Below, in pieces: positions 1,231-48,993 of a DNA stretch of 64,000 nucleotides. Source of the stretch: Naegleria gruberi (taxonomy: Eukaryota); the NCBI GenBank assembly GCA_000004985.1, contig GG738896.1, one strand, 5' to 3'. Both the position numbers and the translations under genes were made by a program. Below the pieces are notes generated by a model, which saw only the letters and a list, made by a program, of their open reading frames with translations, searched no databases and was not told where the DNA came from. Within the stretch, counting starts at the first letter, position 1, and each line of letters starts with the position of its first letter.

Positions 1231-3273
1231 TCAATACGAATTAATATCAATGTTTATTGCAAGATTTTCATCTTGTTGTGAATTGGAATGTAGGCAGAGT
1301 GATATTTCTCTCATTCTCTCATTGAATTTTTCAATAAATTGCTCCTTATCTATTGCTTTAGTGAAATAGACTGAATTATTCGAGTTATTATTGTGCTCTC
1401 CATAAAATTCATCGACGAGAGGATTTACTTTACATGCCCTTTCTAAAAATGATGGTCTGTTATTATTCCAACGATTTTTCCTATAGAGGAAATGTGTAAA
1501 TCTTGTGTATAATTGAAAATTCTCTTTCTTTTCCAGAATTTTCAGACAAGTTTCCTCATCCAAATCAGAACAATCATTAAATGCCAGGTAAGCAGATGGA
1601 TTTTTGAATAGATATATTTTCTTAATTTCACGTGGAATCGAGTTGCAATAAAGGTAGAGATTGTGTTTCGTAACACATTCTTCTAGAAATTCTAGGTCAG
1701 CAAAGATTGGATGTGTTGATAAGTCACTGATCAAAAATAAACACTTTGGGGATACCTTGATCAAATCACAATCTAATTTCAAAGTTTCACTAGCAAATGA
1801 AAATGATTGAAAATCCTGCTCAACCGCTTTCATCACTACTTCCTTGTCGTTCCAAAAATGTCTAAGGTATTGTAGTGAGCTACCAAATTTCCCAACACAT
1901 CTCAATGCAAAATTCTTATTTTGCTTAATCTCATGAGATGAATGAATAATCAAGTGAAATAGCCCTCCTGGAGTGACGCAATAATCAATCAGTAATGTTA
2001 CTTGTTCTAAGTTTGATCTTATTTCTATGGAAGCATATCTAAAGAGTTGAGGATTCAACCTCATGCATCCCTTAATCATTTCAAAATCATTTTGACAGCT
2101 TTCATCGAAATATTTAGATGGTTTTTTCAGTTTGGACATCATTTCTCTAATTAAATTTCTGTCTGTTGAATAGAGTCTTAATGCCTCTTCTATTGATTCA
2201 TTTGGGGCTAACAGCATTACATCCTTGTCCAGTCTGTATTCAGAATCTAAGGGAATCAATAAATAGTTTTTTGGATTATAGTTGATTAAACTAATTACAA
2301 AATCTTTAGATGGAATATCAAATTTGATATTCTCTTCTAGCAATCTTGAATAAAAATACATGTCACTCCTCAAATTAGATCCAATATATTGGAGAGTATC
2401 TGTAGATTTCTTAACAGCCTCAAGTGCCCAAACAGACATATTCCTCAAATTTTCCGTTGCAAATTGATATGCATTTACATTATTAGAAAGGGCTATTTCT
2501 ACAAAGGACCATTCGTTTCTTAATTTCCCTGAAGCAAATCTCAAATTCATTCCATCAAACTCAATAAATTCTTTCATAAATTCTTGGTTTCCTCTCAATG
2601 AATAACTAGCCCTAGATAAATCCACCTGTTCATATTGATTTGCATTAATCAAACAACCATACATTTCCATAAAATCCTCATCGTTAAGAATAATATCCTT
2701 TGTTCGTTCTTCCTCCAATCTGTCATATCTTTCCAATACTATAGCTCCATATTTTGATGAGAGAATTTCACGCTTTTCACTCTCATCCAAATTCTCAAAA
2801 TTATCAAGGAATTTTCTCGATACTTTCTCCATCAATTCAATTTCCTTTGTAAAAGAAATTGCTGAAAGTTTCGCAAACAGAGTAAAATTATTTTCCACAA
2901 TTTTGTAAATTAATTCTTCATCCTTCACATTCAAAGGATAGATTCTAAATTTTTGCAACATTCTTTTTGCAAATTCTACATCATTGGCAGCCACTATCGG
3001 ATACGGATTGATAAAGTTCAAACCAAGGTGACTCGTAATTATTTCATAAATTCTCGCATCACAAATAAATTCAATCGGAGTGAGTTTACTAATTGGAGCA
3101 TAATTTCTCATGAATTGCAATTGATCTTGGAGAGAACTTTCATAGGTGGCTGCTCCTTTTTGTTGATTGAAAAACCTTCTTGTGAGCAAGGTGTGAAAAT
3201 AATTATTGGGCTCAAAATCTAACACAGTAAAAACAATCGACATTTTTTTTGATATTGAAATTAATTTATTCAT
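1231..3273 (-). CDS. protein with interspersed 25-residue repeats (DUF4116-like; consensus L-x-[FY]-A-S-x-x-L-[KR]-x-D-x-E-V-V-x-x-A-V)
   Basis: 680-aa ORF. It carries repeat units such as LRFASGKLRNEWSFVEIALSNNVNA / YQFATENLRNMSVWALEAVKKSTDT / LQYIGSNLRSD and LQYLRHFWNDKEVVMKAVEQD. This is the same repeat family as the 42446..44341 ORF. Confidence 0.55.
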   Translation of the reverse strand: MNKLISISKKMSIVFTVLDFEPNNYFHTLLTRRFFNQQKGAATYESSLQDQLQFMRNYAPISKLTPIEFICDARIYEIITSHLGLNFINPYPIVAANDVEFAKRMLQKFRIYPLNVKDEELIYKIVENNFTLFAKLSAISFTKEIELMEKVSRKFLDNFENLDESEKREILSSKYGAIVLERYDRLEEERTKDIILNDEDFMEMYGCLINANQYEQVDLSRASYSLRGNQEFMKEFIEFDGMNLRFASGKLRNEWSFVEIALSNNVNAYQFATENLRNMSVWALEAVKKSTDTLQYIGSNLRSDMYFYSRLLEENIKFDIPSKDFVISLINYNPKNYLLIPLDSEYRLDKDVMLLAPNESIEEALRLYSTDRNLIREMMSKLKKPSKYFDESCQNDFEMIKGCMRLNPQLFRYASIEIRSNLEQVTLLIDYCVTPGGLFHLIIHSSHEIKQNKNFALRCVGKFGSSLQYLRHFWNDKEVVMKAVEQDFQSFSFASETLKLDCDLIKVSPKCLFLISDLSTHPIFADLEFLEECVTKHNLYLYCNSIPREIKKIYLFKNPSAYLAFNDCSDLDEETCLKILEKKENFQLYTRFTHFLYRKNRWNNNRPSFLERACKVNPLVDEFYGEHNNNSNNSVYFTKAIDKEQFIEKFNERMREISLCLHSNSQQDENLAINIDINSY

Positions 3274-5827: not shown

Positions 5828-8800
5828 TTAGGCCTTAGTAGCACATTTTGTTCCTTTCCATCCCTCATTACACGAACACTTTCCATCAGTAATGCAAATT
5901 CCATGTTTCGAACAAACCAATGGATTCGAAGCTCCATAACCAAAACAAACGAATTCTGTCGTTTCACATTCATTTCCAATTCTTCCTAGAGGACAAGCAC
6001 ATGTATCTGGACTAGTACAATTACCAACTCCACTACAAACTAATCCACTTACAATTTTTCCATAACAAATTGGTAAGGAACATTGAGTAGCTCCATAACC
6101 AGAGTTACATAGACAAGTATCAGGAGATATGCATTGACCTCGATTGGTACAATTCAGGGAACAGATTGGAGTGTTACAAGTTTCACCAATCCATCCTTGG
6201 TTGCATTGACATGTGAAAGGAGCTGTACAGTTGCCATTACCATTGCAAGATTGAGCACAGAATGGTGGTTCGTAAATTCGTTGATGGAGAGCATCAATAT
6301 CTGGATCAGAAACTGAATCACCACAAACAGATTGAAAACCTGAAATGTCAGAAGGTAAAATTGGACTTGATGTCAAGTTGGCATCTGTCATTTGGGCATA
6401 TGATTCAGTAATGAAACGAACATCATCCATAATAAACTCTCTATAATCCAATGTGATGTCATCAACTGGTTTTTGCATAAAGGTTACTCTTTGAATTGAG
6501 TTCAAACCTGTTTGATTTGTGAAAGGAATGTCACTAACTGGAATTCTGACACGAGTTACTCTTGTGTGATCAATCTTGAAATGTTGAATATACTTTGGAT
6601 CAATGTAAATTGCTGGAATATCAGTGAATGCAGTATTCTTAATTTCAGAAAAGAAAATATTCAAATTTAATTGACCTTCAGAAATGGATTGGATAAAGAA
6701 TTCGAAATATCTAAATTTAGAAAGGTCAATTAATTGAACAGGGCCTCCTTTAGTATAACTTTTAGTAATCTGAACTTTACCCATTCCCATTCCAAATCTA
6801 ATACTTGTACTTCCACAAATTGCTGCGGTTGAGTAATCTTTCTGAGCTAGTGGAACATCTTGTTTGGCTACAGTTTGTAAAACCCATCCAGTTTGAGTTG
6901 AGATATCAGTCGATTCACTGTAGAACTTGAACATGTCATCAGAAGAAATAGCTCCACATGGTTGACTGGCAGAAATTGAAATAGGAAGTGAACATCTTGG
7001 TGTACCAAATTGAGTAATACCATTGTTACAAAATAATTGGGCTCTCAAATGACCATTTGGATTAGTACTTGTTCTCAACAAGACGAAAACTTCTCCCTTC
7101 AAAAGTGAGATAATTTCATCATATGAAAAATCCATTGAAAATCTTGAAACTGAATAAGGACTTGGATAAATTGATGGTTCTTGTAAAAATCTGACAATTT
7201 CACCAATTTTACCAATTCCAACTTGAATTTGAGTTGCTAAATGAGATAGATCATGATAAACTGTAAAATCAACTGTTCTCTTATTTGCTAATAAGCCAGC
7301 AAGAACTTTACCGTTTCCTCCAGCATTGATCATGCTTGAGCTTACTTGGCAAGGTTGTAAAATTCCAGAGAATCTTTCTTCAAGAGTTACCTTTTTGATT
7401 CTATCAATGCTTGCGGTTGGGAAATCCCAATTATAGACTTGACAATTATTATTTGGACATGTGGCAGTGATTGAAAACTTGGTGGAATAACCAGTATATA
7501 GAGAATATTCATCATAATATTCAGCAAAGGCAGTTCTTCCACCAGTGTTCTTAAAATGCAAGAATAAATGTTCAGTTTGATTTTCATAGAAATAAGAATT
7601 TGGGTTGACCATTAAATCGTCAATAGAATTGACACGAGGCAATGCTCTCTGACTCATTGATGCTGTTTCATATCTGATATCGAGAACGGCAGTTCTTGGA
7701 TATTGAACAGCTAATACAATCCAATCATTATTTGCAATCGATCTCAAATAATATTGCAAGTCATTTGGAGTTCCAATATTTAAGGCCCATCTCAATACAT
7801 AAACATTCTTCAAAACTAAATTAGAATCCATCCAGAAACCTCTTGTTCCCATATTCCATCCATGTACTTGATCATATTTACCAGGATTAGAAGTATCGTG
7901 AATGAAAAGTCTTGGCATTTTAACAGTCAACTTGTTAAGGTTGGGATCACTTCCAAGAGGTGAACTAGTTGAGAAACCTGCATAATTGACAAGAGTTAAA
8001 GCACCGTAACCTTCTTTAAAGACAGGACAATTATAACTATTCCAATCTGGTTGAGCATTACAACCTGGAACAGTCAAGAAAGAATTATTAGAAACTGACC
8101 ATCCCCCTCCGGTGAATCCTGTCTTACTTCCATCAGTATCCAAAACAGTCATACCTCTATTACCATCTGTAGGTGCTTCCAAGTAGAATGCACTGTTTGA
8201 ATTTACAAAAGTCAAATTTCTCAATCTTCCTCCAGTTTCGTATTTGAAATTAGCATTTGACAAGTTTGTAATAGCTCCTGCCTTTCTATACGAATTGGAC
8301 TTGTAATTTCTAAATACGGTATTTCTTACGTAGGAAGGTCCTCCATTATCATAAAACTCATATGCCTTAAACTCCTCAGTGTTAGAGAAGAAACCAGGAT
8401 AGGAACGTGAAACATCAATGCCAGCTCTGTAAGTCTCGCCTACATTATCACTTTCCGCCTCAAATACTGAATCTTCCACAACACTTGGTTCACCAGCGAC
8501 ATCAATACCAATTCTAGAGTCACCAACAAACATATTTCTCAAAGTAATTGTGTCTGCTCTCAACCACAAAGCCCACTTTCTAATTTTGAAAGCAACAAAG
8601 TTTTCAATAATGCTTTCAACGATGGGTTTACTTTTTGAGCCACGAACTGGATAAGGAGGTTCTACAGGAACCCAGGTGTCATTTTCAGGAAATCCATTGA
8701 CATCTACAAAGTCATCAATGTGAAGACCGACATGATTAGCAGAGTGAACAACGTTATTCTTGAATGAACCAAGTGGAAGCATTCTAGGTCTAATCAATGT

Positions 8801-10263
8801 GGTATTGGCATATTTATCTTGAACTAGACCGATAGCATACTCTGGAAGTGAAAACCAATAGCCAAATTTACCACCAATAGCTCTGTTTCCCTCAAAATAA
8901 TTCATTGCCTTTTGTTGTGTAAGAATTGTGTAAAATTAAGGAATTACTTACATTGGTAATCCAGAAAACTGATACATCGTTATCTGTAGGTATTATTTGA
9001 AGCGGGTCTGAATCGATAATTGGTAAAACTTTAGCTCCCAAATTATTTTTGAACAAGTTGTACATTTCTGATCCATTTTCCAAGAAAAAGGCATGTCCAT
9101 TGATATTATAACAAACATTATTCTCAATTTGAATATAATTTGAATCATGAACAGTGATACATCTTTGATAAGAATTATAAATACTGTTATCCTTTAGAAT
9201 AAAAGGTTTGACAGTAGAGTTCAATGCCTTATCTCCTAATAAGTGAAAGTGAATTGAATAACGTCCCATTAAACCCTTTAAAATATAATTGTTAATCATT
9301 ATAATTCAATAGAATAAACTCACCTTTTGTCCCATTCGTCTCAATTCCACACCAACCATTTCGAATTGTTCAACAAGACGAATGATAACATGACCACCAA
9401 ATGAAGAAGAAGCACTGGATACATCCCCTTCAAACACAATATTCCTATTGAGTTTGGCAACTTCTCCTCTTGTAACTCCACTTGCATAGTGAGTGAACAA
9501 GAGTGTTTGGTTGACTATAAAAGTAGTCGAGTTAATAATTGAAACAATGGTTCTTTCCTCACTCTGATCAGGAAATGGAACACCAACTCGCCAAGTTGGA
9601 AGGGTGACTTTAGTTTTATCTAGAAGTTCTCCGTAATCTGTCGAGGTCAATAAGATGGAATCGCCAACTTTCCAATTGGTTGGAGAACGAGTCTTGATAA
9701 TGGTTGTTCCTTTGACGGCACTTTCAGCCAATTCTACCCAAGATAAACCATCAACAGAACCAACGATTTGAATGAAAGAACCTGAACAAGATGTAAAATT
9801 CATTCAAATGTCAAAACTTACCTGACATGGCAGCAAGACCTTTGGCTCCACCACTACTTCCATCAAATGGATCAATTCCAATAATATTGGAAGCAGTTCT
9901 ATTTCCATAGAAAGTAACCACAATTTTACCAGTAATTGGACAACTAGAGCTGCCAGCAATCAATTTACCTCCCTTGTCAACTCTAATAAATTGGAGAGTC
10001 AAATTTAAATTGACATTGTTAAATATCAAGCTTGCATTTTGTTGGACAATAATTCCATACAACAAAACACCAGGTGACTTATCCAAAAGCGTATTTTGTG
10101 AAATGGTAATGGTAGAATTGACCTTGTTCCAATCAGCAATCGAAGAAAACATTTTCAAGCCAGATTGTTGATGTGGACATTGACCAACTACCATCTTTAC
10201 ATTTCCAGCTACTAAAAACAAGATAGTTATTAGTAGAATAGTTTGTAAGAAACGGTTTAACAT
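5828..10263 (-). CDS. secreted G8-domain / right-handed beta-helix (PbH1) protein with C-terminal EGF-like repeats (CEMIP/TMEM2-like); four exons
   Basis: Exons on the minus strand are approximately 10263..9822, 9781..9324, 9275..8952 and 8908..5828. They are joined by GTAAGT/GTGAGT...AG mini-introns of 40, 48 and 43 nt at approximately 9782..9821, 9276..9323 and 8909..8951. Exon lengths sum to a multiple of 3, about 1434 aa. There is an N-terminal signal peptide (MLNRFLQTILLITILFLVAG). The G8-like signature is WKVGDSILLTSTDYGELL...RGEVAKLNRNIVFEG. PbH1-like repeats appear as SIYNSYQRCITVHDSNYIQIENNVCYNINGHAFFLENGS. The C terminus holds about 6 tenascin-type EGF repeats (CNGNGNCTAPFTCQCNQGWIGETC...). 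Confidence 0.7.
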
Positions 10264-11035: not shown

Positions 11036-11464
11036 TTGAATTTGAAACAAAAGAAGAACAACAATAACACAATGGTCGTCCAATACCAAACTTCCGATAA
11101 TCAATACTTAATCATTGTTGGTGAAAACGCCAAGGAAAACGACAAAATTCGTCAAGAAGCCTCTCAAAATGATTTGTGGTTTCACTTGGAAGATGTATCA
11201 TCACCACACGTAATTTTGAAACCAAATAATAGTTCATCATCCTCATCGTCATTTCCTGCCCAGGCTATTTATTATGCCGGCGTGTTGTGTAAAGCCTACA
11301 GTAAACAAAAGGCCACACAAACTTCATCCGTTATTTATGCACCAAGAAAATCAGTCAAAACTGTAAAGGAAATTGACGGGAGAGTTGAAGTGAAAGGACA
11401 TGTGGAGAAGATGAAGGTTTATCGGGATGATACTATCAAGGAAACATTGAAGAAAGTTGTTTAA
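11036..11464 (+). CDS. CCDC25-like protein (NFACT-R / DUF814-type domain)
   Basis: The ORF contains YLIIVGENAKENDKI...DLWFHLEDVSSPHVIL...AGVLCKAYS...VIYAPRKSVKT. This matches the CCDC25 pattern YMGKDKYENEDLI...DIWFHVDKLSSAHVYL...VVYTPWSNLKK. The start may be the internal Met at ~11072 (MVVQYQ). Confidence 0.6.
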   Translation: MNLKQKKNNNNTMVVQYQTSDNQYLIIVGENAKENDKIRQEASQNDLWFHLEDVSSPHVILKPNNSSSSSSSFPAQAIYYAGVLCKAYSKQKATQTSSVIYAPRKSVKTVKEIDGRVEVKGHVEKMKVYRDDTIKETLKKVV

Positions 11465-11933: not shown

Positions 11934-14900
11934 ATGCAACAACCACATTCCAGAACGTTTCTCTATTTGCTTTTCATATTAATATTGCAAGTGTGTTTGC
12001 AAGTTCAACAACATTCCACCACACTAGCTGTCAACACATGTTGGGGATATTCAGCTACTGACATTTCGAATGTATGTGGAGGTCATGGTTTCTGTCAAAG
12101 TACTGATTCTTGCTATTGTGTAGATTCAACGAGTAGTAATACTTTATATTCATCAGGAGGATCCAACACTCTCTATCAGGAAACTTCTCTATGGTCCACC
12201 AACTCTCAATTCGAATTGAAACAACAAAATGATGGTAATTTGGTAGTTTATACGAGAAGTGGAGGAGTGGTTTTCTCTTTCTCAACTTGGCAACAAACAC
12301 CTGATACTCCCTATACTTTAGTTCTTTCTGGGGATGGTACATTACAAGTTAAAAGTGGTGGAGGTGCCATTATAAAGACAATTTCAGGAGCATGTGGTGG
12401 TACAGCCCCTTACAAATTACTAGTCCAAAATGATGGTAATATAGTGCTCTATGGAGCACAGAGAGAAGTTTGTTTTGCTTCTGGAACATCTCAAGGTGGT
12501 TATTCACTTACGTATAATTGGGGTGGAGACCAGTGCAATCAATATCTTTGTTACGGGTTGACTGGTGCTAATGCATGTAATGGTCACGGCTCTTGTAATT
12601 CGAGGGATAGTTGCTCATGTAATAATGGATACAGTGGAAGTCAATGTACTGAGTACTACTGCAATAGTGTACTGTATTCTCAGATTGGTACAGTTTGTAA
12701 TGGTCATGGAACGTGTACGGCTCCAAATACTTGTCAATGTACTGGTGGATATAATGGTACTTTTTGTGCTTCATATCAATGTTATGGATTTGAATCGAAT
12801 GACCCAGGAGCATGTAGTGGATTTGGAACTTGTTCTTCACCAAATACTTGTACTAATTGTCTTGCTGGAAGATATGGATCTGAGTGCCAATATTATGATT
12901 GCGGTGGAATTAGATTTGATCAACCAAACGTATGCTCTGGAAGAGGAGAATGTGGTTCTAAAAACAATTGTACTTGTTCAGAGCCATACTTTGGAGATAA
13001 TTGTGAAAATTTTATGTGTAATGGAATCATTAACAATTCTACGCTCGTTTGTTCAGGCCATGGAGCATGTTCTTCACCAGAGAATTGTACTTGCCAAGAG
13101 GGTTACTTTGGAGAGAATTGTGAATTGTTTGAATGCAGTGGAATTTTGAAAAATGAATCAAATGTGTGCACTGGATTTGGTAATTGCACAGCATTTGATA
13201 GTTGTCAATGTGATGAGCAACATTATGGTAAATTCTGTGAAATTAATATTTGCAATGGAGTACTCTCAAACAGTCCAAGTGTTTGCTCTTCACATGGTCA
13301 ATGTAACTCATTCAATAATTGTACTTGTGATGAAAATTATAGTGGACAAAATTGTGAAATTTATGATTGTTATGGAGCTTCTAAAAATTCCTCCTCCGTA
13401 TGCTCTGGAAGAGGAACATGTTCAGCATATAACAATTGTAGTTGCTCTGCACCTTTTTATGGATCTGATTGTGGATTATATAATTGTTTTGGAGTAGAGC
13501 ACTTGAACGACAGTTCATGTTCATCCCATGGTTCATGTGATTCACCAAACAATTGTACATGTAAACCTGGATATTATGGAAACCGTTGTGAGTTTCATAA
13601 TTGTTATGGCACTCTCTTCAACAGCTCAGGTGTTTGTTCCACTCATGGACAATGCTTATCACCAAATAATTGTTTCTGTGAAGCAGGATTCTATGGACCA
13701 GAATGTGCAGAATATGATTGTTTTGGAGTTCATAAGAATTCTTCAAATGTTTGTTTCCAACATGGAGCTTGTTTGAGTCCAAATAATTGTTCTTGCCAGG
13801 AAGGATACTTTTCGTTTGATTGTTCTAATCATAGATGTTATGGATATTTATTTAATGATACTACAAATGTTTGTAATGGCCATGGCTCATGTCCTTATCC
13901 AAATAATTGTACATGTCAATCAGGATATTATGGATATCAGTGTGAATCTCATGAATGCTTTGGAAAGTTATTCAATATCTCGACTGTTTGTTCCACCCAT
14001 GGACAATGTTTGTCACCAAATAATTGTTTCTGTGAAGCAGGATATTATGGACCAGAATGTGCAGAATATGATTGTTTTGGAGTTCATAAGAATTCTTCAA
14101 ATGTATGCTTCCAGCACGGTACATGTTTGAGTCCTAACAATTGCTCATGCCAAGAAGGATACTACGGATTCGATTGTTCTAATCACAACTGTTTTGGAAT
14201 TCTGTTTAATGATACCATGAATGTTTGTAATGGTCATGGTTCTTGTTTTGTTCCAGATAATTGTACATGTCATCCAGGATATTATGGAAAAACCTGTGAA
14301 ATGCACAATTGTTTCAATATTTTGTTCAATGACTCAAATGTTTGCTCAGGAAAAGGTCAATGCTTATCACCAAATAACTGTTCCTGTGTTGATGGTTTTA
14401 CCAATAAGGATTGCTCAGTGAATATCAGTCCTTTCCAAATCAACCTCACAAAATACGAAGAAGTTGTTTATTTGGAGTTTGATAACAAGACTATTAGTGT
14501 TGAAATTCAATTGACAGATCGAGTATTGAGCCAAAGTCCAAATATTTCCTACACTTGGTCTTGTGCTCAGTGCGATGGACAAAATGTGGTGTATTATGTT
14601 GATTCTAATCGTTTGTTCATCAACTCTACATTAACTGATGTTACTCAAGCAGGCAATTACACTTTCATTGCAAACGCATCCATTGCTAATATTCAACCAT
14701 TCCAAAGTAGAAAATCCAACATTGAGCAATTCAAATTGGTTGTAAAGTATGATTTGAATCAGCCAACTTTGGGCTCCTTTGGCTTACCTTCTGTACTTGT
14801 ATCTAATACTCAAGATCAAACTATTTCAACTGTTATTAATAGTATCACTCTTAATCAAACAACTGTAAGATACTTTTTGGGTTGTGGTAGAAATTGCTCA

Positions 14901-17900
14901 ACTTTGGTTTCGTATTTATACGAAGTGAAGGCTGGAGTGTTTTATTACAAAAAATCAGGTTCTGTAATGGCACAATTTGAGAGCTCTAATCTATTGACCT
15001 TTTCTCCATCTGTTCCTATTCAAGCAACCATTCCATCTGATTATTTGAATGAAACAGTCTCATTCACATTTACAGTTATCAATAACAAGCAACAGAATAT
15101 CAGTTCAACTGTACAAATTCAAATTGTCTCCTCTGCAAGCCCACCAACACGACTGACAAACATAGTGGATGTTGTACCAACATATGGTATTTCAATGAGT
15201 GAAAAGTTTACAATTAAGGTTTCGGAGTGGGTTGCATCACCTGAACTGTTACCACTAAAATACGCTTTTGGATATTTTGATAAATCCAAGGCAGAAGCTG
15301 TGAGATTGACCGAATATGGTCTTAATACTACGTTTTCATCTTATCTACCTTATATTAGATCATCATCTAGCTCTAAGGCAAGAAGCATCTTGGAAGCTAC
15401 AGAGACAATTGCTTTGGTTGTCTTTGTACAAGACTCTCTTGGAAATGTCGAAACTGAAACGGCAGCTAATGTAACAGTATCTCCATTTAATGGAACTCAA
15501 GAGCAATATATTGAGGTTGTTAAATCTTTGAGCGGAGAATCACTATTGGTTGCCTCAGTGGATCAAACATTCACAAGCTTAGCATCATCATCATTGGTTT
15601 CAGCCCTCATTTCTAATATTGAAATTGATCCAAAGAATCCTTCTTCTTCTCTTTCCAGCTTGGAAACGCTCACGTCCAACAATGAAACACTCACAGCCAA
15701 TACAGTTACTCAGGTCATCAACAAATTGGATTCATTTATCTCCAATCTAACAGAGCTCTATTTAAGTGAACTTGCTCTATATGGCTATGTGAAATCCGGG
15801 ATGTCCAGTACAGACATTAGCAAAACAGTTCAAATTATTTCGAACTGTTTCTCTACTTCATATGATGCCGAAAAAACCAAATCAACAGCAAGTCTCGTCA
15901 CAGGTCTGATTTATTATGGAACTATTCCTTCTGTTGTAGACACAACATCCACAGAATTACCAACAACCTCTTACAAATCAACTTCTATTAACATTACTGT
16001 TTCTAGTTTCAACATGCCAACACCGAGTACGAATCTACAATCAGTCTCAGATACTGAAAGCAAGGTAGCAATGAATTTGACATCTATTTTGTCCAAATAT
16101 GGTGCCTATTCGACAACATGTGGTGCAACAATGATAATTTATTCAAAGAACACTAATTATGATTCCTCTGTTAGTAACATGACTATCAGTTCCTCTGTTA
16201 CTGACTTTAAATTCATGAGAAAACTGGATATTTTAGTATTGAAAAATTTGGATTCACCGCTCATACTTTCCTTCAATGCAGCCACAATCCCAAGCTCAGT
16301 GATCGCCAACTCCACAGTTACCAACAGTACGTATCATTGTAAGTATTGGGATGAGAGTCTTAAATTGTGGAGCAGCAATGGATGTTTATTGAATAGAGTT
16401 TCATCAAATTCAATTGAATGCGCTTGCTCTCATACAACTATGTTTACAACTTTCCTTGAATCCAAGACCACAGCACTTACTGTTCAACTCAAGGATCAGG
16501 TTTCGTCTTTATACTATGCCCAAATATCATTCGGTATTATTTACTTGATTGCCGCCAGTGCTATTTTGGTTGGATTGATTGTTTTGAGAAAATCGCAACC
16601 TGTTAGCTCTAGATTACTGACTCCATATGTTGGTTTGATTGCCTTAATTGTGGAATGTACATTGATTTACATAGTACAAAGATCTGTTCTCGTTGATCAA
16701 TTGAACTCTGCCAATACTCAAATGTGGGAAAATGGAGATACTGCTGCCAACATTATTGCAAACATTGTAATGATTATTGTAAACACTCTCAATTTAACTG
16801 CCATTTTCTGTTACGTCATGCAAGTTTTCAGATTCCAATTCATGAAATTGCTTTACAAGAAACTTTCTGATAATAGAACTCAAGCTCAAAGTGCAACAGT
16901 TTTGAAAGTATTGAAGTATACCACTTCTCAAATATTATTTTATTCATTGATTGGAATTTTTACTGCCCTAAATATTGCCTATTGGGTTATTTGGGTCATT
17001 CTGAGAAGAACTGGAGTTCTCACATCAACACAGTACACCTATGTTGTATCCCTTTCTTATACGGTTTGCATTTTGGCATTTGGTTTGATAATTACTGCTG
17101 TTGCAATCCTTGACATGATTCTCTCCTCAAAGAAGGAAGTTGAGCAAAAGAAAAATAGAAGAAAAGCTATTAACTTTTCACAACCAACCAGCAACTTTAG
17201 TCTTGATAATGCTGAAAATGTACATGAAAAGAAGAAAATTAATAGGAATGTATTCTTGAATGCTTTCAATTGGTTTACATCAATGGATGGACCACTCTAT
17301 TTCAGAATGGAAATGTTCATTTATATCGTGTCTTTCATTTTGCTAATATTGAATCAAGTTATTGGATTGAGTAGCTTAGCATACAGATTTGAGAGTTTGA
17401 CAATGTTTAAACTTGCTTTGACTTTTGATTCCATTTCCTTCATCTTTGAGGTACTCTATGTGGTCTCATATATTTTAGTATTTGGTGGTTATGCACTCAT
17501 TGTCGCAATCATTTACAAGGTTAGACAACGTAGAACAAGAAAGGAAGAACAAAAGAAACAAAATGAGGAAATTATGAATCAAGAACTTTACAATACTTTG
17601 GAATCTGAAGAAGGTTATGAACTCTTTGCCAACTTTTGCGAAAAAGAATTCAGTTCAGAAAATCTATTCCTCTTCTCTGATATCAAAGCAAGTCCAGATG
17701 TGGCCTCTGGTGAAAATCTAGGAGGATTACTCTTCTTTGCTGAGAGAATTTATGAAAAGTACATCAAGACAGGTGCAGAAATGGAAGTTAACATTCCATC
17801 AAAGAGTAGAACTGCTTTTGTCCAACTCTATGAAAAATGTAAGAAAGTTGAAACAAACTCTTCATTGGAATTATTAGATTCTAATTCTCTAGCTAAATCT

Positions 17901-18077
17901 GGAATTGAAACCAATATTGTAAAGGATTGTTTCGATTTAATGATGAGACAAGTAGTAATGAATTTAGGAGATACCTTTTCTAGATTTGTTTTCACACCAG
18001 AATATGTTAATTTCAAGGCGGTTAGAGACGTTCAAATGCAAATTATCGAGAAGGCCAATGTTGTCTATGATATTTAA
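11934..18077 (+). CDS. giant receptor: signal peptide, 2 bulb-type lectin motifs, ~20 EGF-like repeats, Ser/Thr-rich stalk, GPS motif, 7 TM helices, C-terminal RGS domain
   Basis: Single 2047-aa ORF with no introns. Lectin motifs QNDGNLVVY and QNDGNIVLY match QxDxNxVxY. There are about 20 Cys-rich 31-32-aa EGF units (C..G.CxSPNNCxCxxGYYGxxCE). The GPS motif is CKYWDESLKLWSSNGC...CACSHTTMFTTF. Seven hydrophobic segments follow. The RGS signature is EEGYELFANFCEKEFSSENLFLFSDIKA. Confidence 0.75.
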   Translation: MQQPHSRTFLYLLFILILQVCLQVQQHSTTLAVNTCWGYSATDISNVCGGHGFCQSTDSCYCVDSTSSNTLYSSGGSNTLYQETSLWSTNSQFELKQQNDGNLVVYTRSGGVVFSFSTWQQTPDTPYTLVLSGDGTLQVKSGGGAIIKTISGACGGTAPYKLLVQNDGNIVLYGAQREVCFASGTSQGGYSLTYNWGGDQCNQYLCYGLTGANACNGHGSCNSRDSCSCNNGYSGSQCTEYYCNSVLYSQIGTVCNGHGTCTAPNTCQCTGGYNGTFCASYQCYGFESNDPGACSGFGTCSSPNTCTNCLAGRYGSECQYYDCGGIRFDQPNVCSGRGECGSKNNCTCSEPYFGDNCENFMCNGIINNSTLVCSGHGACSSPENCTCQEGYFGENCELFECSGILKNESNVCTGFGNCTAFDSCQCDEQHYGKFCEINICNGVLSNSPSVCSSHGQCNSFNNCTCDENYSGQNCEIYDCYGASKNSSSVCSGRGTCSAYNNCSCSAPFYGSDCGLYNCFGVEHLNDSSCSSHGSCDSPNNCTCKPGYYGNRCEFHNCYGTLFNSSGVCSTHGQCLSPNNCFCEAGFYGPECAEYDCFGVHKNSSNVCFQHGACLSPNNCSCQEGYFSFDCSNHRCYGYLFNDTTNVCNGHGSCPYPNNCTCQSGYYGYQCESHECFGKLFNISTVCSTHGQCLSPNNCFCEAGYYGPECAEYDCFGVHKNSSNVCFQHGTCLSPNNCSCQEGYYGFDCSNHNCFGILFNDTMNVCNGHGSCFVPDNCTCHPGYYGKTCEMHNCFNILFNDSNVCSGKGQCLSPNNCSCVDGFTNKDCSVNISPFQINLTKYEEVVYLEFDNKTISVEIQLTDRVLSQSPNISYTWSCAQCDGQNVVYYVDSNRLFINSTLTDVTQAGNYTFIANASIANIQPFQSRKSNIEQFKLVVKYDLNQPTLGSFGLPSVLVSNTQDQTISTVINSITLNQTTVRYFLGCGRNCSTLVSYLYEVKAGVFYYKKSGSVMAQFESSNLLTFSPSVPIQATIPSDYLNETVSFTFTVINNKQQNISSTVQIQIVSSASPPTRLTNIVDVVPTYGISMSEKFTIKVSEWVASPELLPLKYAFGYFDKSKAEAVRLTEYGLNTTFSSYLPYIRSSSSSKARSILEATETIALVVFVQDSLGNVETETAANVTVSPFNGTQEQYIEVVKSLSGESLLVASVDQTFTSLASSSLVSALISNIEIDPKNPSSSLSSLETLTSNNETLTANTVTQVINKLDSFISNLTELYLSELALYGYVKSGMSSTDISKTVQIISNCFSTSYDAEKTKSTASLVTGLIYYGTIPSVVDTTSTELPTTSYKSTSINITVSSFNMPTPSTNLQSVSDTESKVAMNLTSILSKYGAYSTTCGATMIIYSKNTNYDSSVSNMTISSSVTDFKFMRKLDILVLKNLDSPLILSFNAATIPSSVIANSTVTNSTYHCKYWDESLKLWSSNGCLLNRVSSNSIECACSHTTMFTTFLESKTTALTVQLKDQVSSLYYAQISFGIIYLIAASAILVGLIVLRKSQPVSSRLLTPYVGLIALIVECTLIYIVQRSVLVDQLNSANTQMWENGDTAANIIANIVMIIVNTLNLTAIFCYVMQVFRFQFMKLLYKKLSDNRTQAQSATVLKVLKYTTSQILFYSLIGIFTALNIAYWVIWVILRRTGVLTSTQYTYVVSLSYTVCILAFGLIITAVAILDMILSSKKEVEQKKNRRKAINFSQPTSNFSLDNAENVHEKKKINRNVFLNAFNWFTSMDGPLYFRMEMFIYIVSFILLILNQVIGLSSLAYRFESLTMFKLALTFDSISFIFEVLYVVSYILVFGGYALIVAIIYKVRQRRTRKEEQKKQNEEIMNQELYNTLESEEGYELFANFCEKEFSSENLFLFSDIKASPDVASGENLGGLLFFAERIYEKYIKTGAEMEVNIPSKSRTAFVQLYEKCKKVETNSSLELLDSNSLAKSGIETNIVKDCFDLMMRQVVMNLGDTFSRFVFTPEYVNFKAVRDVQMQIIEKANVVYDI
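16338..16456 (+). other. GPS (GPCR proteolysis site) motif inside the giant receptor
   Basis: C-x2-W-x6-W-x4-C-x11-C-x-C-x-H-T-T-x-F (CKYWDESLKLWSSNGCLLNRVSSNSIECACSHTTMFTTF), immediately before the first TM helix. Confidence 0.6.
17590..18060 (+). other. RGS (regulator of G-protein signalling) domain at the C terminus of the 7TM receptor
   Basis: LYNTLESEEGYELFANFCEKEFSSENLFLFSDIKA ... FVQLYEKCKK ... matches the RGS-box hallmark (F..F...EFS.ENL.FW). Confidence 0.55.
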
Positions 18078-19025: not shown

Positions 19026-20039
19026 ATGTCGCAACAAGCAACAATTGATTCATCATCATCGCCAGCAAACATGTATTTTCCGGTGCAAACAAAAATTTCA
19101 TGCCTCTTTGAAATTGAATTTTTAGAGAAGGAGAAGAAAGTTCTTGCTGTCAATAGATTATATAAGAAGGTTGTTAATTTACCAACCAATTCTGATGATA
19201 TCCGAGTGAATCCGACCATAAAAATTGATGGCACTTGTTGTCTTGTTCGTCAAGAGAAATTATTTAAACGTTATGATAGAAAATTGAATGCTTCGGGATC
19301 GAAGAAGAATAAGCAATTTCAAAAAGAAATTTCTCAAGGTACTGCCGATACTAATATTTTACAATTTGATATTTCAAAGGATTTTAAGGAGGGACCAAAA
19401 GGATGGATACCTTGTGATAGTATTGCTCATTTATTTACTGAGGAGAATAATTCAAATGTGGTTTCGTCTCAACATTTAGTGGGATGGATTCCTGTGGATT
19501 CTAATGATGCTGCAGATAAATGGCATTCTTCTGCGATAGTTTCGATTAATAATGAGCCACATGCCATAATGTTAATTCCCTATTTTGACCAAAATGATGA
19601 ACAAGCCAAGTTTTCAGTTGAATTTAGAAAGTTATCAAGTTTAGAAAATCAAACATTGGAATTAATTGGATCAAAAATTAATGGTAACGTTTATAACTTT
19701 CCTGCAAATGAAAAACAACACTTTTTAGTTCCACATGGATGGGCTTCCTATTCTTGGAAAGCAAGTAATGCATTTTTGGAGAATGTTAAAGAGCTCACCG
19801 TGGAAAAGCTTAAATCTTGGTTCGAAGATGAATCCAATATCATGAGTAAAAGTGAAGGTATTGTATTTCACATAATGTACAAAACAGAGGAAGGTAAGGA
19901 TAAGGAAATGCTGATCAAAATACACAGACACCACCTTAATTTGGATTGGCCTTTGAAGGGCTCTGCCATTCCACAATTTCAATATCAGTTGCAATGGATA
20001 GAAGAAGTTTTGAGACTCAAGAGTGAAAATAAACTCTAA
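19026..20039 (+). CDS. RLIG1 (C12orf29)-type ATP-dependent RNA ligase homolog
   Basis: 337-aa ORF. It carries the KxDG nucleotidyltransferase motif KIDGTCCLV and further blocks GWIPCDSI, VGWIPVD, KWHSS, QTLELIGSKINGNVY, HFLVPHGW, SWFEDE, EGIVFHI and LIKIHRHHLNLDWP. These match my recollection of human C12orf29, which has EKVDGTCCYV, GWVPVE, LEQTLELIGTNINGNPYG, EGIVWHC and LIKVHRHHLGLCWP. This comparison is from memory, not a search. Confidence 0.7.
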   Translation: MSQQATIDSSSSPANMYFPVQTKISCLFEIEFLEKEKKVLAVNRLYKKVVNLPTNSDDIRVNPTIKIDGTCCLVRQEKLFKRYDRKLNASGSKKNKQFQKEISQGTADTNILQFDISKDFKEGPKGWIPCDSIAHLFTEENNSNVVSSQHLVGWIPVDSNDAADKWHSSAIVSINNEPHAIMLIPYFDQNDEQAKFSVEFRKLSSLENQTLELIGSKINGNVYNFPANEKQHFLVPHGWASYSWKASNAFLENVKELTVEKLKSWFEDESNIMSKSEGIVFHIMYKTEEGKDKEMLIKIHRHHLNLDWPLKGSAIPQFQYQLQWIEEVLRLKSENKL

Positions 20040-31352: not shown

Positions 31353-31426
31353 GCAGCGATAGATCAGTTGGTTAGATCGTAAGCCTAACACGCTTAAGGT
31401 CGCGGGTTCAAGCCCCGCTCACTGTA
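31353..31426 (+). tRNA. tRNA-Val (anticodon AAC)
   Basis: Cloverleaf: acceptor GCAGCGA/TCACTGT (G1:U72 wobble plus one A:C mismatch), D-arm GATC-AGTTGGTTA-GATC, anticodon arm TAAGC-CTAACAC-GCTTA, variable AGGTC, T-arm GCGGG-TTCAAGC-CCCGC. It is followed by the T-runs CTTTTGCTTTTG. Confidence 0.7.
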
Positions 31427-37039: not shown

Positions 37040-38008
<969 letters not shown>

Positions 38009-41433: not shown

Positions 41434-41594
41434 ATTTTTGACTTGATTTAGTTCTTAATTGGATCACATGGTGGTGCTTGTTCGAAGGATTACTTTGTAA
41501 CTTTCTTCAAATAAATTTGCTAATATGGAATTTATGCGAAGGAAGAAAATGTATTCTCATCAAAGAACAATTCACAATCACTAACAACATGAAT

Positions 41595-41665
41595 GCGTCG
41601 ATGGTTTAGTGGTAGAATACGGCGTTGCCATCGCCGTGACCCGGGTTCAATTCCCGGTCGACGCA
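41595..41665 (+). tRNA. tRNA-Gly (anticodon GCC)
   Basis: Perfect 7-bp acceptor stem GCGTCGA/TCGACGC, D-arm GTTT-AGTGGTA-GAAT, anticodon arm CGGCG-TTGCCAT-CGCCG, T-arm CCGGG-TTCAATT-CCCGG. It resembles the usual eukaryotic tRNA-Gly-GCC framework and is followed by TTTTTT at 41674. Confidence 0.85.
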
Positions 41666-41673
41666 TGAATTAT

Positions 41674-48629: not shown

Positions 48630-48993
48630 TTTGGAATGATATGAGAATCTGAATAGATTCGTTATTGTCGTAATAAAAGATTTTTTTGGAATGATAGAGG
48701 TGATGATTGTTTCACTCGCCATTACCGGGAAAAAATATATTTAATCCCAAGGTTACACATTGTTTTACTTACAACCCTAAAATGAGAAATTATTGTCGTT
48801 TTCAATTCTTACTACCCTATCGTCAGTATGGTGAATTGAGCCAAATTGCTCAAGTATGGTAAATTGAGCCAAATTGCTCTTGGATTCGGCAGGTATTCTC
48901 CATTGTAAATTGATTCTGTTGGTAGAATCTCCACTTACAATAATTGCAATAATTGCGCTCATAATTATCAATCTCTTTAATCCATTCCAACAT

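What the first reader, a model, noticed from the sequence alone, without database searches (positions are those of the whole stretch)
11934..18077. Single-exon 2047-aa chimeric receptor: bulb-lectin + ~20 EGF + GPS + 7TM + C-terminal RGS domain
The sequence shows one uninterrupted 6.1-kb ORF. It opens with a signal peptide and two QxDxNxVxY bulb-lectin motifs. About 20 tenascin-type EGF units follow, then a long Ser/Thr stalk and a textbook GPS motif (C..W......W....C...........C.C.H.T.F), then seven hydrophobic helices. The cytoplasmic tail carries the RGS-box signature EFSSENLFLF. The architecture is adhesion-GPCR-like (large adhesive ectodomain with an autoproteolysis motif before the 7TM). 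It is also a 7TM-RGS fusion, a receptor carrying its own GTPase-accelerating domain, the principle known from plant RGS1-type proteins. Having both in one polypeptide, with carbohydrate-binding modules on top, is unusual. It would predict a self-limiting, ligand (glycan/adhesion)-gated G-protein switch.
Basis: partly seen in the sequence, partly recalled or inferred. Interest (0 to 1): 0.65.

Follow-up and report, generated by a model that had tools for sequence, protein, structure and literature searches.

The report
Naegleria lectin-EGF-GAIN 7TM-RGS receptor
This is an intact Naegleria gruberi gene for a large surface receptor that joins sugar-binding and adhesion modules, a self-cleaving GAIN domain and seven membrane helices to a built-in G-protein "off-switch" (RGS) domain; the design is interesting, but it was already described in 2022 for a family of 28 such proteins in the sister species N. 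fowleri.

Summary
Window 11934-18077 (+) is one 2047-codon ORF with a signal peptide, a bulb-type lectin, 16-17 EGF units (not ~20), a GPS motif, seven TM helices and a C-terminal RGS box. All are supported by profile or structure searches.

Corrections:
- The organism is Naegleria gruberi (Heterolobosea), not an amoebozoan. The identical protein is already deposited.
- The "Ser/Thr stalk" is a REJ domain followed by a complete GAIN domain.
- The 7TM bundle is a true GPCR fold but shows no sequence or structural affinity to the adhesion/secretin class.

It belongs to a large heterolobosean family. Of 69 cluster representatives with GPS+7TM, 68 end in RGS. The cleavage triplet is H-T-T rather than H-L-T.

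Bosch, Jeck and Siderovski (JBC 2022) already described N. fowleri "7TM RGS" proteins with GPS motifs, EGF repeats and lectin domains, and measured GAP activity of their RGS domains. One of them, Nf 7TM RGS1, shares every domain with this protein in the same order.

Most likely function: an adhesion- or glycan-sensing receptor whose output is regulated GTPase acceleration on Naegleria G-alpha subunits.

Verdict: a real feature and a new member of a known kind. Interest is modest.

The parts
11934..18077 (+). Complete single-ORF coding sequence (2047 aa plus stop) of the N. gruberi lectin-EGF-REJ-GAIN-7TM-RGS receptor
   Evidence: It is identical to the deposited N. gruberi protein P0001, 'B-lectin domain-containing protein' (100% identity, 2047 aa).
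11934..12011 (+). Signal peptide (aa 1-26, approximate)
   Evidence: Hydrophobic segment at aa 6-26, KD 1.79, preceded by Arg7. No dedicated signal-peptide predictor was run.
12039..12119 (+). N-terminal Cys-rich partial EGF-like unit (aa 36-62)
   Evidence: Weak EGF_2 hit at aa 45-65, E=0.022. The sequence reads CWGY..CGGHGFCQSTDSCYC.
12156..12503 (+). Bulb-type (GNA-like, beta-prism II) lectin domain, aa ~75-190. It has two intact QxDxNxVxY motifs (aa 98, 165) and a degenerate middle one (SGDGTLQVK).
   Evidence: PDB sequence hits to gastrodianin-4 (6.9e-9), putidacin L1 (8.7e-9), and the SCAfet, garlic and snowdrop lectins. Pfam B_lectin is sub-threshold at 20.6 bits. Homologous N-terminal lectin modules occur in family members P0008, P0009, P0007 and P0034.
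12549..14417 (+). Array of 16 teneurin/tenascin-type EGF units (aa 206-828), heavily sequon-rich (27 NxS/T)
   Evidence: Pfam EGF_TEN 226.6 bits and EGF_2 206 bits with 16 stretches.
13526..14290 (+). Tandem duplication of a 354-nt (three-EGF) block inside the EGF array
   Evidence: TRF: period 354, 2.2 copies, 82% matches, no indels.
14523..15515 (+). REJ domain (aa ~864-1194).
   Evidence: Pfam PF02010 REJ, 39.8 bits (cutoff 25), E=3e-10, profile positions 115-424 of 452. The region is conserved in at least 15 family representatives.
15504..15920 (+). GAIN subdomain A (helical, aa ~1191-1329)
   Evidence: AlphaFold model helices H2-H140. The family profile aligns to the ADGRL3, ADGRG6 and latrophilin-1 GAIN domains over ~280 positions. 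Foldseek hits the BAI3, BAI2, CELSR1 and Lphn GAIN structures at E 6e-9 to 4e-6.
15966..16463 (+). GAIN subdomain B (beta-sandwich, aa ~1345-1510), which includes the GPS motif
   Evidence: Model strands E156-E321, pLDDT mostly 85-95. Foldseek and profile hits as above. Pfam GPS 31-33 bits.
16431..16439 (+). Putative autoproteolysis triplet His1500-Thr1501 | Thr1502 (P-2, P-1, P+1)
   Evidence: H1500 and T1502 are invariant and T1501 nearly invariant in the 31-sequence family alignment. The triplet is HTT in 64 and HAT in 3 of 69 representatives. The adhesion-GPCR consensus is His-Leu/Ile-Ser/Thr (PMC13197933). Cleavage itself is not shown.
16437..16463 (+). Stachel-like last GAIN strand, TMFTTFLES (aa 1502-1510). 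It is a candidate tethered agonist.
   Evidence: It is a beta-strand in the model (E314-321). The family pattern is T(68/68)-x-F(67)-x-x-F(67)-[ILV], against the adhesion-GPCR TIA consensus TxFxxLM.
16482..17537 (+). Seven-transmembrane GPCR-fold domain (aa ~1517-1868) with a long basic ICL3 (aa ~1735-1789). It is a family-specific 7TM, not 7tm_2.
17592..18011 (+). RGS domain (aa 1887-2026). Its G-alpha-contact motifs are EFSSEN (1905-1910), EVN (1951-1953) and DTFSRF (2013-2018).
   Evidence: Pfam RGS 37.9-40.5 bits, cutoff 23.9. The family profile hits RGS10 and RGS5 at 2e-15, with the three motifs aligned. Foldseek TM-scores of 0.7-0.77 to RGS9, RGS16, RGS8 and RGS4. E1905, E1909, N1910, N1953, N2010, D2013, T2014 and R2017 are invariant in the family.

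Best explanation
The ORF encodes a type-I-oriented, N-out/C-in surface receptor of a heterolobosean-specific family (the Naegleria '7TM RGS' proteins).

Shown here:
- The ectodomain consists of a signal peptide, a bulb-type lectin, 16 EGF units, a REJ domain and a complete GAIN domain. The GAIN domain's last strand follows a conserved His-Thr|Thr triplet.
- A seven-helix GPCR-fold bundle of a family-specific type follows.
- After a short linker that continues the TM7 helix comes a canonical RGS box with all three G-alpha-contact motifs intact.

Shown by others for N. fowleri relatives (Bosch et al. 2022): isolated RGS domains of such proteins bind the transition-state form of Naegleria G-alpha subunits and accelerate their GTP hydrolysis through the canonical switch-I interface.

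Inferred:
- The RGS domain of this protein is likewise a membrane-tethered GAP for one or more N. gruberi G-alpha subunits.
- The lectin/EGF/REJ ectodomain engages glycans or surfaces such as prey, substrate or other cells.
- Engagement or force on the ectodomain is relayed to the RGS output through the GAIN domain and the 7TM bundle. This could involve exposure of the T-x-F-x-x-F-[ILV] strand after autoproteolysis. The relay would work by changing the position or accessibility of the RGS domain, or by receptor removal from the membrane as in plant AtRGS1. Either way, the lifetime of G-alpha-GTP would be set by the extracellular cue.
For: ORF and topology:
- The ORF is intact and matches the deposited model.
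- There are seven TM segments, with basic intracellular loops. The 44 NxS/T sequons upstream of the GPS lie within the predicted ectodomain.

Domains:
- RGS is above the Pfam cutoff. Its contact motifs align to RGS10 and RGS5 and are invariant across the family.
- The GAIN fold is supported by profile hits to ADGRL3 (3.4e-11) and ADGRG6 (1.8e-10), by Foldseek hits to CD97 full-length (4e-10) and to the BAI3, BAI2, CELSR1 and Lphn GAIN domains, and by a model with pLDDT 81.
- REJ. Lectin.

Fusion and family:
- 68 of 69 representatives with GPS+7TM carry a C-terminal RGS.
- Members occur in N. gruberi, N. fowleri, N. lovaniensis and Willaertia magna.
- The published Nf 7TM RGS1 corresponds to cluster P0008, identified by its primer-encoded peptides. 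It shares lectin (32%), REJ (34%), GAIN-B (38%), 7TM (54%) and RGS (42%) with this protein, in the same order.

Biochemistry of relatives: GAP activity and binding of Nf 7TM RGS2/3/4 RGS domains on Nf G-alpha 2, 3, 5 and 7, abolished by the switch-I Gly-to-Ser mutation (PMC9283941).
Against: - No experiment on this protein exists, and no transcript evidence was examined.
- GAP activity was measured only on isolated RGS domains of N. fowleri paralogs. The closest identified one, RGS1, gave uninterpretable assays.
- Whether any 7TM-RGS in Naegleria responds to an extracellular cue is explicitly stated to be unknown by Bosch et al..
- The P-1 residue of the cleavage site is Thr instead of the Leu/Ile of cleavage-competent adhesion GPCRs, so autoproteolysis is uncertain.
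- Conservation of the post-cleavage strand could simply reflect its role in the GAIN beta-sandwich core.
- TM6 lacks the Trp toggle that contacts the tethered agonist in adhesion GPCRs (sequence).
- The sugar specificity of the lectin domain is unknown, and its Pfam score is sub-threshold.
Confidence: 0.7

Rival explanations
1. This is a genuine adhesion-class GPCR that works. The tethered agonist activates the 7TM as a GEF for a heterotrimeric G protein, and the fused RGS then shuts the same G-alpha off. The result is a self-limiting pulse generator.
For: - A GAIN domain lies immediately before TM1, and the best Foldseek hit of the GAIN+7TM+RGS model is full-length CD97, aligned over 644 columns.
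- The Stachel-like T-x-F-x-x-F-[ILV] strand is conserved.
- The 7TM is a GPCR fold.
- Charged residues at the cytoplasmic helix ends are invariant: R1633 at the end of TM3, D1727 at the end of TM5, and F1790-R1791 before TM6. This is compatible with a G-protein-facing microswitch.
- Some Naegleria G-alpha subunits are slow exchangers that would need a GEF.
Against: - No Pfam 7tm_2 or any other 7TM family hit.
- Profile matches to adhesion GPCRs stop just after the GPS.
- There is no Trp in TM6.
- No GEF activity has been reported for any 7TM-RGS protein. The published data show only the GAP side.
Confidence: 0.15
2. This is mainly an adhesion or glycan-binding surface protein with a constitutive, unregulated membrane-anchored GAP. 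The GAIN domain is a non-cleaving structural spacer, and the 7TM is only a membrane anchor that positions the RGS near G-alpha.
For: - The P-1 Thr deviates from the cleavage consensus.
- Many metazoan GAIN domains do not cleave.
- The ectodomain is dominated by adhesion-type modules, and EGF blocks expand by recent tandem duplication.
- No ligand dependence is known for any Naegleria 7TM-RGS.
Against: - The catalytic His and the nucleophile Thr are invariant across a family whose overall identity falls to about 20%.
- The 7TM bundle has invariant polar and charged residues at its cytoplasmic face, which a passive anchor would not need. A single TM helix would be enough to anchor the protein.
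- Plant AtRGS1 sets a precedent for ligand-regulated 7TM-RGS proteins (cited).
Confidence: 0.13
3. This is an annotation or assembly artefact, or a pseudogene: two neighbouring genes (an adhesion protein and a 7TM-RGS) read through by chance, or a decaying copy.
For: No transcript evidence was examined here. Several family gene models in the databases are visibly truncated or mis-started (P0003, P0004, P0005, P0006).
Against: - The frame is open for 6144 nt without interruption.
- The same contiguous order is kept in an 85%-identical paralog and in N. fowleri, N. lovaniensis and Willaertia proteins.
- All catalytic and contact residues are intact.
Confidence: 0.02

Closest known systems
Naegleria fowleri '7TM RGS' family (Bosch, Jeck and Siderovski, J Biol Chem 2022, PMC9283941), in particular Nf 7TM RGS1 (NF0014590 / FDP41_005437, cluster P0008)
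   Same: The domain order is the same: bulb lectin, EGF array, REJ, GAIN/GPS, 7TM, C-terminal RGS. Each domain is detectably homologous, at 32-54% identity. The paper explicitly notes GPS motifs, EGF repeats and lectin domains in these proteins and likens them to adhesion GPCRs.
   Different: - This is the N. gruberi member, 2047 aa against 2632-2720 aa, with 16 EGF units against ~29.
- The paper does not mention the REJ domain, the full GAIN fold, the H-T-T cleavage triplet or the class of the 7TM.
- The tested protein that may be the true ortholog is Nf 7TM RGS4, which ends in VVYGI like this gene's paralog. It could not be retrieved.
Metazoan adhesion GPCRs (class B2; e.g. CD97/ADGRE5, latrophilins, BAI, CELSR)
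   Same: A large adhesive ectodomain with EGF repeats. A GAIN domain with four conserved Cys, two Trp, a His and a Thr nucleophile directly before TM1. A Stachel-like strand. Significant profile and fold matches to the GAIN domains.
   Different: - The 7TM is not 7tm_2.
- P-1 is Thr, not Leu/Ile.
- The strand is TxFxxF[ILV], not TxFxxLM.
- There is no TM6 Trp toggle.
- The cytoplasmic tail is an RGS domain, which no metazoan adhesion GPCR has.
Plant AtRGS1-type 7TM-RGS proteins (also found in Trichomonas, chytrids, filastereans and ichthyosporeans)
   Same: A seven-TM domain fused to a C-terminal RGS box that acts as a GAP on G-alpha. The concept of a 'receptor GAP' for self-activating G-alpha.
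   Different: AtRGS1 has only a short extracellular N-terminus (established knowledge), whereas this protein has a ~1500-aa ectodomain with a GAIN domain. Homology between the two 7TM bundles was not tested here.
Polycystin-1 / sea-urchin REJ / PKDREJ proteins
   Same: A REJ domain is immediately followed by GAIN/GPS next to the membrane. Lectin-type modules sit further out.
   Different: Polycystin-1 has 11 TM helices with a PLAT domain after TM1 and a channel-like C-terminal half. Here there are 7 TM helices and an RGS, and no PLAT hit.

Membership tests
Heterolobosean 7TM-RGS family (Bosch et al. 2022) | Seven TM helices followed by a C-terminal RGS domain in one polypeptide | tested here: met
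   Hydropathy, AlphaFold models, and Pfam RGS 38-40 bits against a cutoff of 23.9.
Heterolobosean 7TM-RGS family (Bosch et al. 2022) | Sequence homology of the 7TM and RGS to published N. fowleri members | tested here: met
   Nf 7TM RGS1 was identified as P0008 through its primer-encoded peptides. Its 7TM is 54% identical (E 7e-130) and its RGS 42% identical (E 5e-45). Nf 7TM RGS3 is likely P0026, at 35% and 31%.
Heterolobosean 7TM-RGS family (Bosch et al. 2022) | GAP activity of the RGS domain on Naegleria G-alpha subunits | not testable with these tools
   Only the conservation of contact motifs could be checked: EFSxEN, EVN and DTFSRF are invariant in the family and align to RGS10 and RGS5.
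Adhesion GPCR (class B2) | GAIN domain (subdomains A and B, with GPS) immediately N-terminal to TM1 | tested here: met
   Profile hits to ADGRL3 (3.4e-11), ADGRG6 (1.8e-10) and the latrophilin-1 GAIN domain (6.7e-8). Foldseek hits to BAI3, BAI2, CELSR1, Lphn and CD97. Pfam GPS above its cutoff.
Adhesion GPCR (class B2) | 7TM domain belonging to the secretin/adhesion family (Pfam 7tm_2) | tested here: not met
   [not shown]
Adhesion GPCR (class B2) | [quoted passage not shown] | tested here: inconclusive
   His1500 and Thr1502 are present and invariant. P-1 is Thr, and this holds across the family (HTT in 64 of 69, HAT in 3). The consensus is taken from PMC13197933. Cleavage was not assayed.
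Adhesion GPCR (class B2) | Tethered agonist TxFxxLM engaging a TM6 Trp toggle (W6.53) | tested here: inconclusive
   The strand reads TMFTTFL, and the family pattern is TxFxxF[ILV]. TM6 (MEMFIYIVSFILLILNQVIGLSSL) contains no Trp.
Plant AtRGS1-type 7TM-RGS | 7TM + RGS with a short N-terminus, and a 7TM homologous to that of AtRGS1 | not tested
   The general architecture is shared, but the ~1500-aa ectodomain is not. No AtRGS1 sequence or AFDB search was available (the afdb50 library was unavailable).
Polycystin-1 / REJ family | REJ domain directly followed by GPS/GAIN | tested here: met
   Pfam REJ 39.8 bits (cutoff 25) at aa ~864-1194, followed by GAIN at aa ~1191-1510.
Polycystin-1 / REJ family | 11 TM helices with a PLAT domain after TM1 and a polycystin channel-like C-terminus | tested here: not met
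   There are seven TM helices. No PLAT or PKD_channel Pfam hit.
Bulb-type (GNA-like) mannose-binding lectins | Beta-prism II domain of three subdomains carrying QxDxNxVxY sugar-binding motifs | tested here: met
   Homology: PDB hits at E 7e-9 to 1e-6 to GNA-family lectins. Two intact motifs and one degenerate one. Pfam B_lectin is below its gathering score. Sugar binding is not testable here.
RGS (R4/RZ-like RGS box) | Nine-helix RGS fold with G-alpha switch-contact residues, equivalent to RGS4 S85/E87/N88, N128 and D163/R167 (Tesmer et al. 1997; recalled from established knowledge) | tested here: met
   Foldseek TM-scores of 0.7-0.77 to RGS4, RGS8, RGS9 and RGS16. The motifs EFSSEN, EVN and DTFSRF align with EFSEEN, (E/Q)VN and DSYSRF of RGS5 and RGS10 and are invariant in the family.

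The most novel reading that the evidence does not exclude
In Heterolobosea, a REJ-GAIN autoproteolysis and tethered-strand module has been coupled to a 7TM bundle that is not of the adhesion/secretin class, and the receptor's cytoplasmic output is GAP rather than GEF activity.

If the H-T|T site really cleaves, and the T-x-F-x-x-F-[ILV] strand really gates the bundle, two things would follow. First, GAIN/Stachel mechanosensing would be an ancient, portable module that works on unrelated GPCR folds. Second, it could act by turning a G protein off rather than on, as a 'mechanosensitive receptor-GAP'.
Probability: 0.2. Interest if true: 0.65.

Novelty: new member of a known kind. Interest (0 to 1): 0.3.

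Why it matters
7TM-RGS proteins are the proposed ancestral way of controlling heterotrimeric G proteins in many non-animal eukaryotes. How extracellular cues regulate them is unknown outside plants.

The Naegleria family, including this gene, offers receptors with recognisable ligand-binding modules (lectin, EGF, REJ) and a GAIN domain. That makes the question experimentally approachable in a non-pathogenic relative of the brain-eating amoeba N. fowleri.

The incremental points found here sharpen the picture but do not change it. They are the REJ+GAIN assignment, the family-wide H-T-T cleavage triplet, and a 7TM bundle that is a GPCR fold but not adhesion-class. The architecture itself was published in 2022, and the protein is already in the databases.

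Tried and rejected
- Exact-sequence look-ups of the window protein and of paralog P0002 in the assembly index found nothing. No paralog DNA could be obtained, so no dN/dS test was possible.
- The word-index homolog search performed poorly on this low-complexity, repeat-rich protein, returning 2-4 hits per query. The last search, seeded with the N. lovaniensis fragment P0003, failed to recover N. fowleri 7TM RGS4. Orthology to that tested protein therefore rests only on a shared C-terminal VVYGI and remains a weak inference.
- An alignment of 55 full-length members failed internally. Subsets of 31 and 35 sequences worked.
- The afdb50 fold library was unavailable, so the 7TM could not be compared with AtRGS1, Dictyostelium cAR-like or other non-PDB GPCR models.
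- Bradford et al. 2013 (PMC4871593) is not held. Anantharaman et al. 2011 was not found as a held paper.
- Literature searches for '7TM-RGS' together with 'GAIN domain', and for Naegleria together with REJ, GAIN or polycystin, found nothing beyond Bosch et al. 2022.
- I considered and rejected the idea that the region between the EGF array and the GPS is a mucin-like stalk. It is REJ + GAIN, with a high-confidence fold for the GAIN part.
- I considered and rejected an amoebozoan origin.
- I checked the window for a partner G-alpha gene or a second family member and found none.

Full report
**Observation.**
The window contains a single uninterrupted ORF at 11934-18077 on the + strand (ATG start, 2047 aa). 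A Kyte-Doolittle scan finds an N-terminal hydrophobic signal-like segment (aa 6-26) and seven further hydrophobic segments between aa 1526 and 1864.

- QNDGNLVVY at aa 98 and QNDGNIVLY at aa 165;
- the GPS string CKYW......W....C...........CACSHTTMF at aa 1469-1504;
- EFSSENLFLF at aa 1905-1914.

Pfam confirms most of the domain claims:
- An EGF array: EGF_TEN 226.6 bits, and EGF_2 206 bits in 16 stretches.
- RGS at 37.9-40.5 bits against a gathering score of 23.9, at aa 1887-2026.
- GPS at 31-33 bits against a cutoff of 22.5, once the EGF part is removed from the query.
- B_lectin is sub-threshold at 20.6 bits against 32.4. However, a phmmer search of aa 60-205 against PDB sequences hits GNA-type bulb lectins at E=7e-9 to 1e-6 (gastrodianin, putidacin L1, SCAfet, garlic and snowdrop agglutinins). 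The lectin call therefore stands.

Two details need correcting. There are 16 complete EGF units plus a partial one, not about 20. And the region called a 'Ser/Thr stalk' is a REJ domain (PF02010, 39.8 bits against 25, E=3e-10, aa ~864-1194) followed by a folded GAIN domain.

**Source and database status.**
The identical 2047-aa protein is deposited for Naegleria gruberi as 'B-lectin domain-containing protein'. There is also an 85%-identical N. gruberi paralog whose gene model is N-terminally truncated. The organism is therefore a heterolobosean (Discoba), not an amoebozoan. The deposited model equals the single ORF, so the annotators also called it intron-less. I examined no transcript data.

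**Anatomy from structure prediction.**
I modelled aa 1190-2047 with a 31-sequence family alignment. The model has mean pLDDT 81 and shows, in order:
- a helical subdomain (aa ~1191-1329);
- a beta-sandwich (aa ~1345-1510) whose last strand is TMFTTFLES, directly after His1500-Thr1501-Thr1502;
- seven long TM helices;
- a helical bundle, reached after a short linker that continues the TM7 helix.

Foldseek against the PDB returns full-length CD97/ADGRE5 first (E=4e-10, 644 aligned columns). Next come the GAIN crystal structures of BAI3, BAI2, CELSR1, latrophilin-1 and -3, GPR110 and GPR56 (E 6e-9 to 2.5e-4). After those come RGS9, RGS16, RGS8, RGS1 and RGS4, with target-normalised TM-scores of 0.7-0.77.

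Independently, an HMM of the family alignment hits RGS10 and RGS5 at 2e-15. It also hits ADGRL3 (3.4e-11), ADGRG6 (1.8e-10) and the latrophilin-1 GAIN domain (6.7e-8) over ~280 profile positions that end just after the GPS. The GAIN assignment, covering both subdomains and not just the GPS motif, is therefore solid.

**The 7TM bundle.**
No Pfam 7TM family matches aa 1513-1869, even at E<=10. The family profile does not align to any GPCR 7TM sequence in the PDB.

TM6 contains no tryptophan. Adhesion GPCRs use W6.53 as the toggle that contacts the tethered agonist (PMC13197933).

I conclude that the protein is adhesion-GPCR-like in its ectodomain and GAIN module, but that its 7TM is a family-specific GPCR-fold bundle. 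It should not be filed as a class B2 member.

**Family.**
An exhaustive profile search with the GPS+7TM part found 630 proteins at E<=1e-3 and 83 at E<=1e-30 among 1.84 billion cluster representatives. Of these, 69 representatives match the whole GPS+7TM profile, and 68 of those carry an RGS domain C-terminal to the 7TM.

Named members come from N. gruberi, N. fowleri, N. lovaniensis and Willaertia magna. The rest are unnamed environmental contigs. Below about rank 93 the hits match only the GPS segment; the one I looked up is a crustacean protein.

Columns that are invariant or nearly so across the 31-sequence alignment, in which identity to this protein falls to ~20%, include:
- the four GPS cysteines, W1479, H1500, T1501, T1502, F1504 and F1507;
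- several residues at the cytoplasmic ends of helices: R1633 after TM3, D1727 at the end of TM5, and L1788, F1790, R1791 and E1793 before TM6;
- the RGS residues E1905, E1909, N1910, N1953, N2010, D2013, T2014 and R2017.

The RGS motifs align with EFSEEN, (E/Q)VN and DSYSRF of RGS5 and RGS10. From established knowledge of the RGS4-Gi-alpha1 complex, these are the three loops that contact the G-alpha switch regions.

One family-wide peculiarity is the cleavage triplet. It is H-T-T in 64 representatives and H-A-T in 3 of the 69, whereas the distant GPS-only hits mostly have H-L-T. The adhesion-GPCR consensus is His-Leu/Ile-Ser/Thr. The strand after the triplet follows T-x-F-x-x-F-[ILV] almost without exception. 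The adhesion-GPCR tethered-agonist consensus is TxFxxLM.

**What is already known.**
Bosch, Jeck and Siderovski (J Biol Chem 2022, PMC9283941) reported the following:
- N. fowleri expresses 28 seven-transmembrane proteins with C-terminal RGS domains.
- 'A number' of them have GPS motifs reminiscent of adhesion GPCRs.
- Isolated RGS domains of Nf 7TM RGS2, 3 and 4 accelerate GTP hydrolysis on Nf G-alpha 2, 3, 5 and 7. They bind with affinities from sub-micromolar to micromolar, and the switch-I Gly-to-Ser mutation abolishes the effect.
- Two of these G-alpha subunits are self-activating, as in plants, where AtRGS1 is the paradigm 7TM-RGS.
- The authors state that whether these proteins act as receptors, and how cues alter GAP activity, is unknown.

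I used the primer sequences in their Table S1 to link their proteins to my hits. Nf 7TM RGS1 is the N. fowleri cluster P0008 (FDP41_005437): NKDMSI occurs at residue 2453 and the C-terminus is NVVYLC. BLASTP shows that it shares every module with the window protein in the same order:

| Module | Identity to window protein |
|---|---|
| Lectin | 32% |
| REJ | 34% |
| GAIN-B | 38% |
| 7TM | 54% |
| RGS | 42% |

Nf 7TM RGS4 ends in VVYGI, like the window gene's paralog and an N. lovaniensis fragment, so it may be the closer ortholog. I could not retrieve its sequence.

De Mendoza et al. 2014 (PMC3971589) had already noted 7TM-RGS architectures in many bikonts and in some opisthokonts.

**Mechanism.**
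- Shown: the domain composition, the topology, and the integrity and conservation of the catalytic and contact residues.
- Shown by others for paralogs and orthologs: canonical GAP activity of the RGS box on Naegleria G-alpha.
- Inferred: this protein sits in the plasma membrane with lectin, EGF, REJ and GAIN outside and the RGS inside. It binds glycans or surfaces through the ectodomain. It converts that event into a change in GAP action on G-alpha-GTP through the GAIN-7TM unit.

The change in GAP action could come about in either of two ways. One is a conformational change of the bundle that repositions the closely tethered RGS. The other is removal of the receptor from the membrane, as for AtRGS1.

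The invariant His and Thr nucleophile and the conserved hydrophobic strand make autoproteolysis and a Stachel-type step plausible. But the Thr at P-1 and the non-class-B bundle leave this open.

It is not excluded, but it has no specific support. A third possibility is a constitutive GAP on an adhesion protein.

**Novelty and verdict.**
The kind is known and the protein is already deposited.

The points added here are:
- the REJ domain, and hence a polycystin-1-like REJ-GAIN juxtamembrane module;
- the complete GAIN fold;
- the family-wide H-T-T triplet and TxFxxF[ILV] strand;
- the near-obligate RGS fusion (68 of 69);
- evidence that the 7TM is a GPCR fold outside the adhesion class.

I rate it as a new member of a known kind, with modest interest.

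**Surroundings.**
No G-alpha gene and no second family member lie in the window. Upstream on the opposite strand is a G8/CEMIP-like gene with teneurin-type EGF repeats. A small NFACT-R ORF ends at 11464, which leaves ~470 bp of AT-rich intergenic DNA before the start codon.

Noticed in passing
window 13526-14290: A 354-nt unit encoding three EGF modules is tandemly duplicated (2.2 copies, 82% matches, no indels). The EGF array of this receptor has therefore grown by recent in-frame block duplication. EGF counts in family members range from 0 to ~34.
   Followed up: partly
window 5828-8905 (-) and 9811-10263 (-): A divergently oriented neighbour encodes a G8 domain, a CEMIP beta-helix, CEMIP domain X and teneurin-type EGF repeats. 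It is a CEMIP/TMEM2-like (hyaluronidase-family-like) surface protein in a heterolobosean. The pieces lie in separate ORFs, so the gene probably has introns.
   Followed up: partly
family-wide (P0007-P0089); window aa 1500-1508 = nt 16431-16457: The GPS cleavage triplet is H-T-T (64 of 69) or H-A-T (3 of 69) instead of the metazoan H-L/I-T. The following strand is T-x-F-x-x-F-[ILV]. Whether a GAIN domain with Thr at P-1 self-cleaves does not appear to have been tested.
   Followed up: partly
P0004 (N. gruberi, 523 aa), P0003, P0005, P0006: Several deposited gene models of family members are truncated. P0004 starts at the Met two residues after the predicted cleavage site (HTT-M-F...). P0005 lacks TM7. 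P0003 starts within the extracellular loop just before TM3. Database counts of GPS-7TM-RGS proteins in Naegleria are therefore probably underestimates.
   Followed up: no
window 19026-20039 (+): An ORF with a strong match to RNA ligase 1 (RLIG1, PF17720, 146 bits) lies immediately downstream of the receptor gene.
   Followed up: no
window 44641-48722 (-): Two overlapping ORFs (44641-46488 and 46383-48722) both carry NHL / teneurin-NHL repeats. They are probably one gene split by an intron or a frameshift. Together with the teneurin-type EGF repeats elsewhere in the window, Naegleria carries several teneurin-like modules in unrelated proteins.
   Followed up: no
window 1231-3273 (-) and 42446-44341 (-): Two proteins are built of DUF4116 repeats (up to 9 repeats, 420 bits). 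This is an expanded repeat family of unknown function.
   Followed up: no
window 37070-37759 (-); 31353-31426 (+); 41594-41666 (+); 11036-11464 (+): Housekeeping items: a polyubiquitin gene with three ubiquitin repeats, tRNA-Val(AAC), tRNA-Gly(GCC), and a small NFACT-R (CCDC25-like) ORF just upstream of the receptor gene.
   Followed up: no
[not shown]
   Followed up: no
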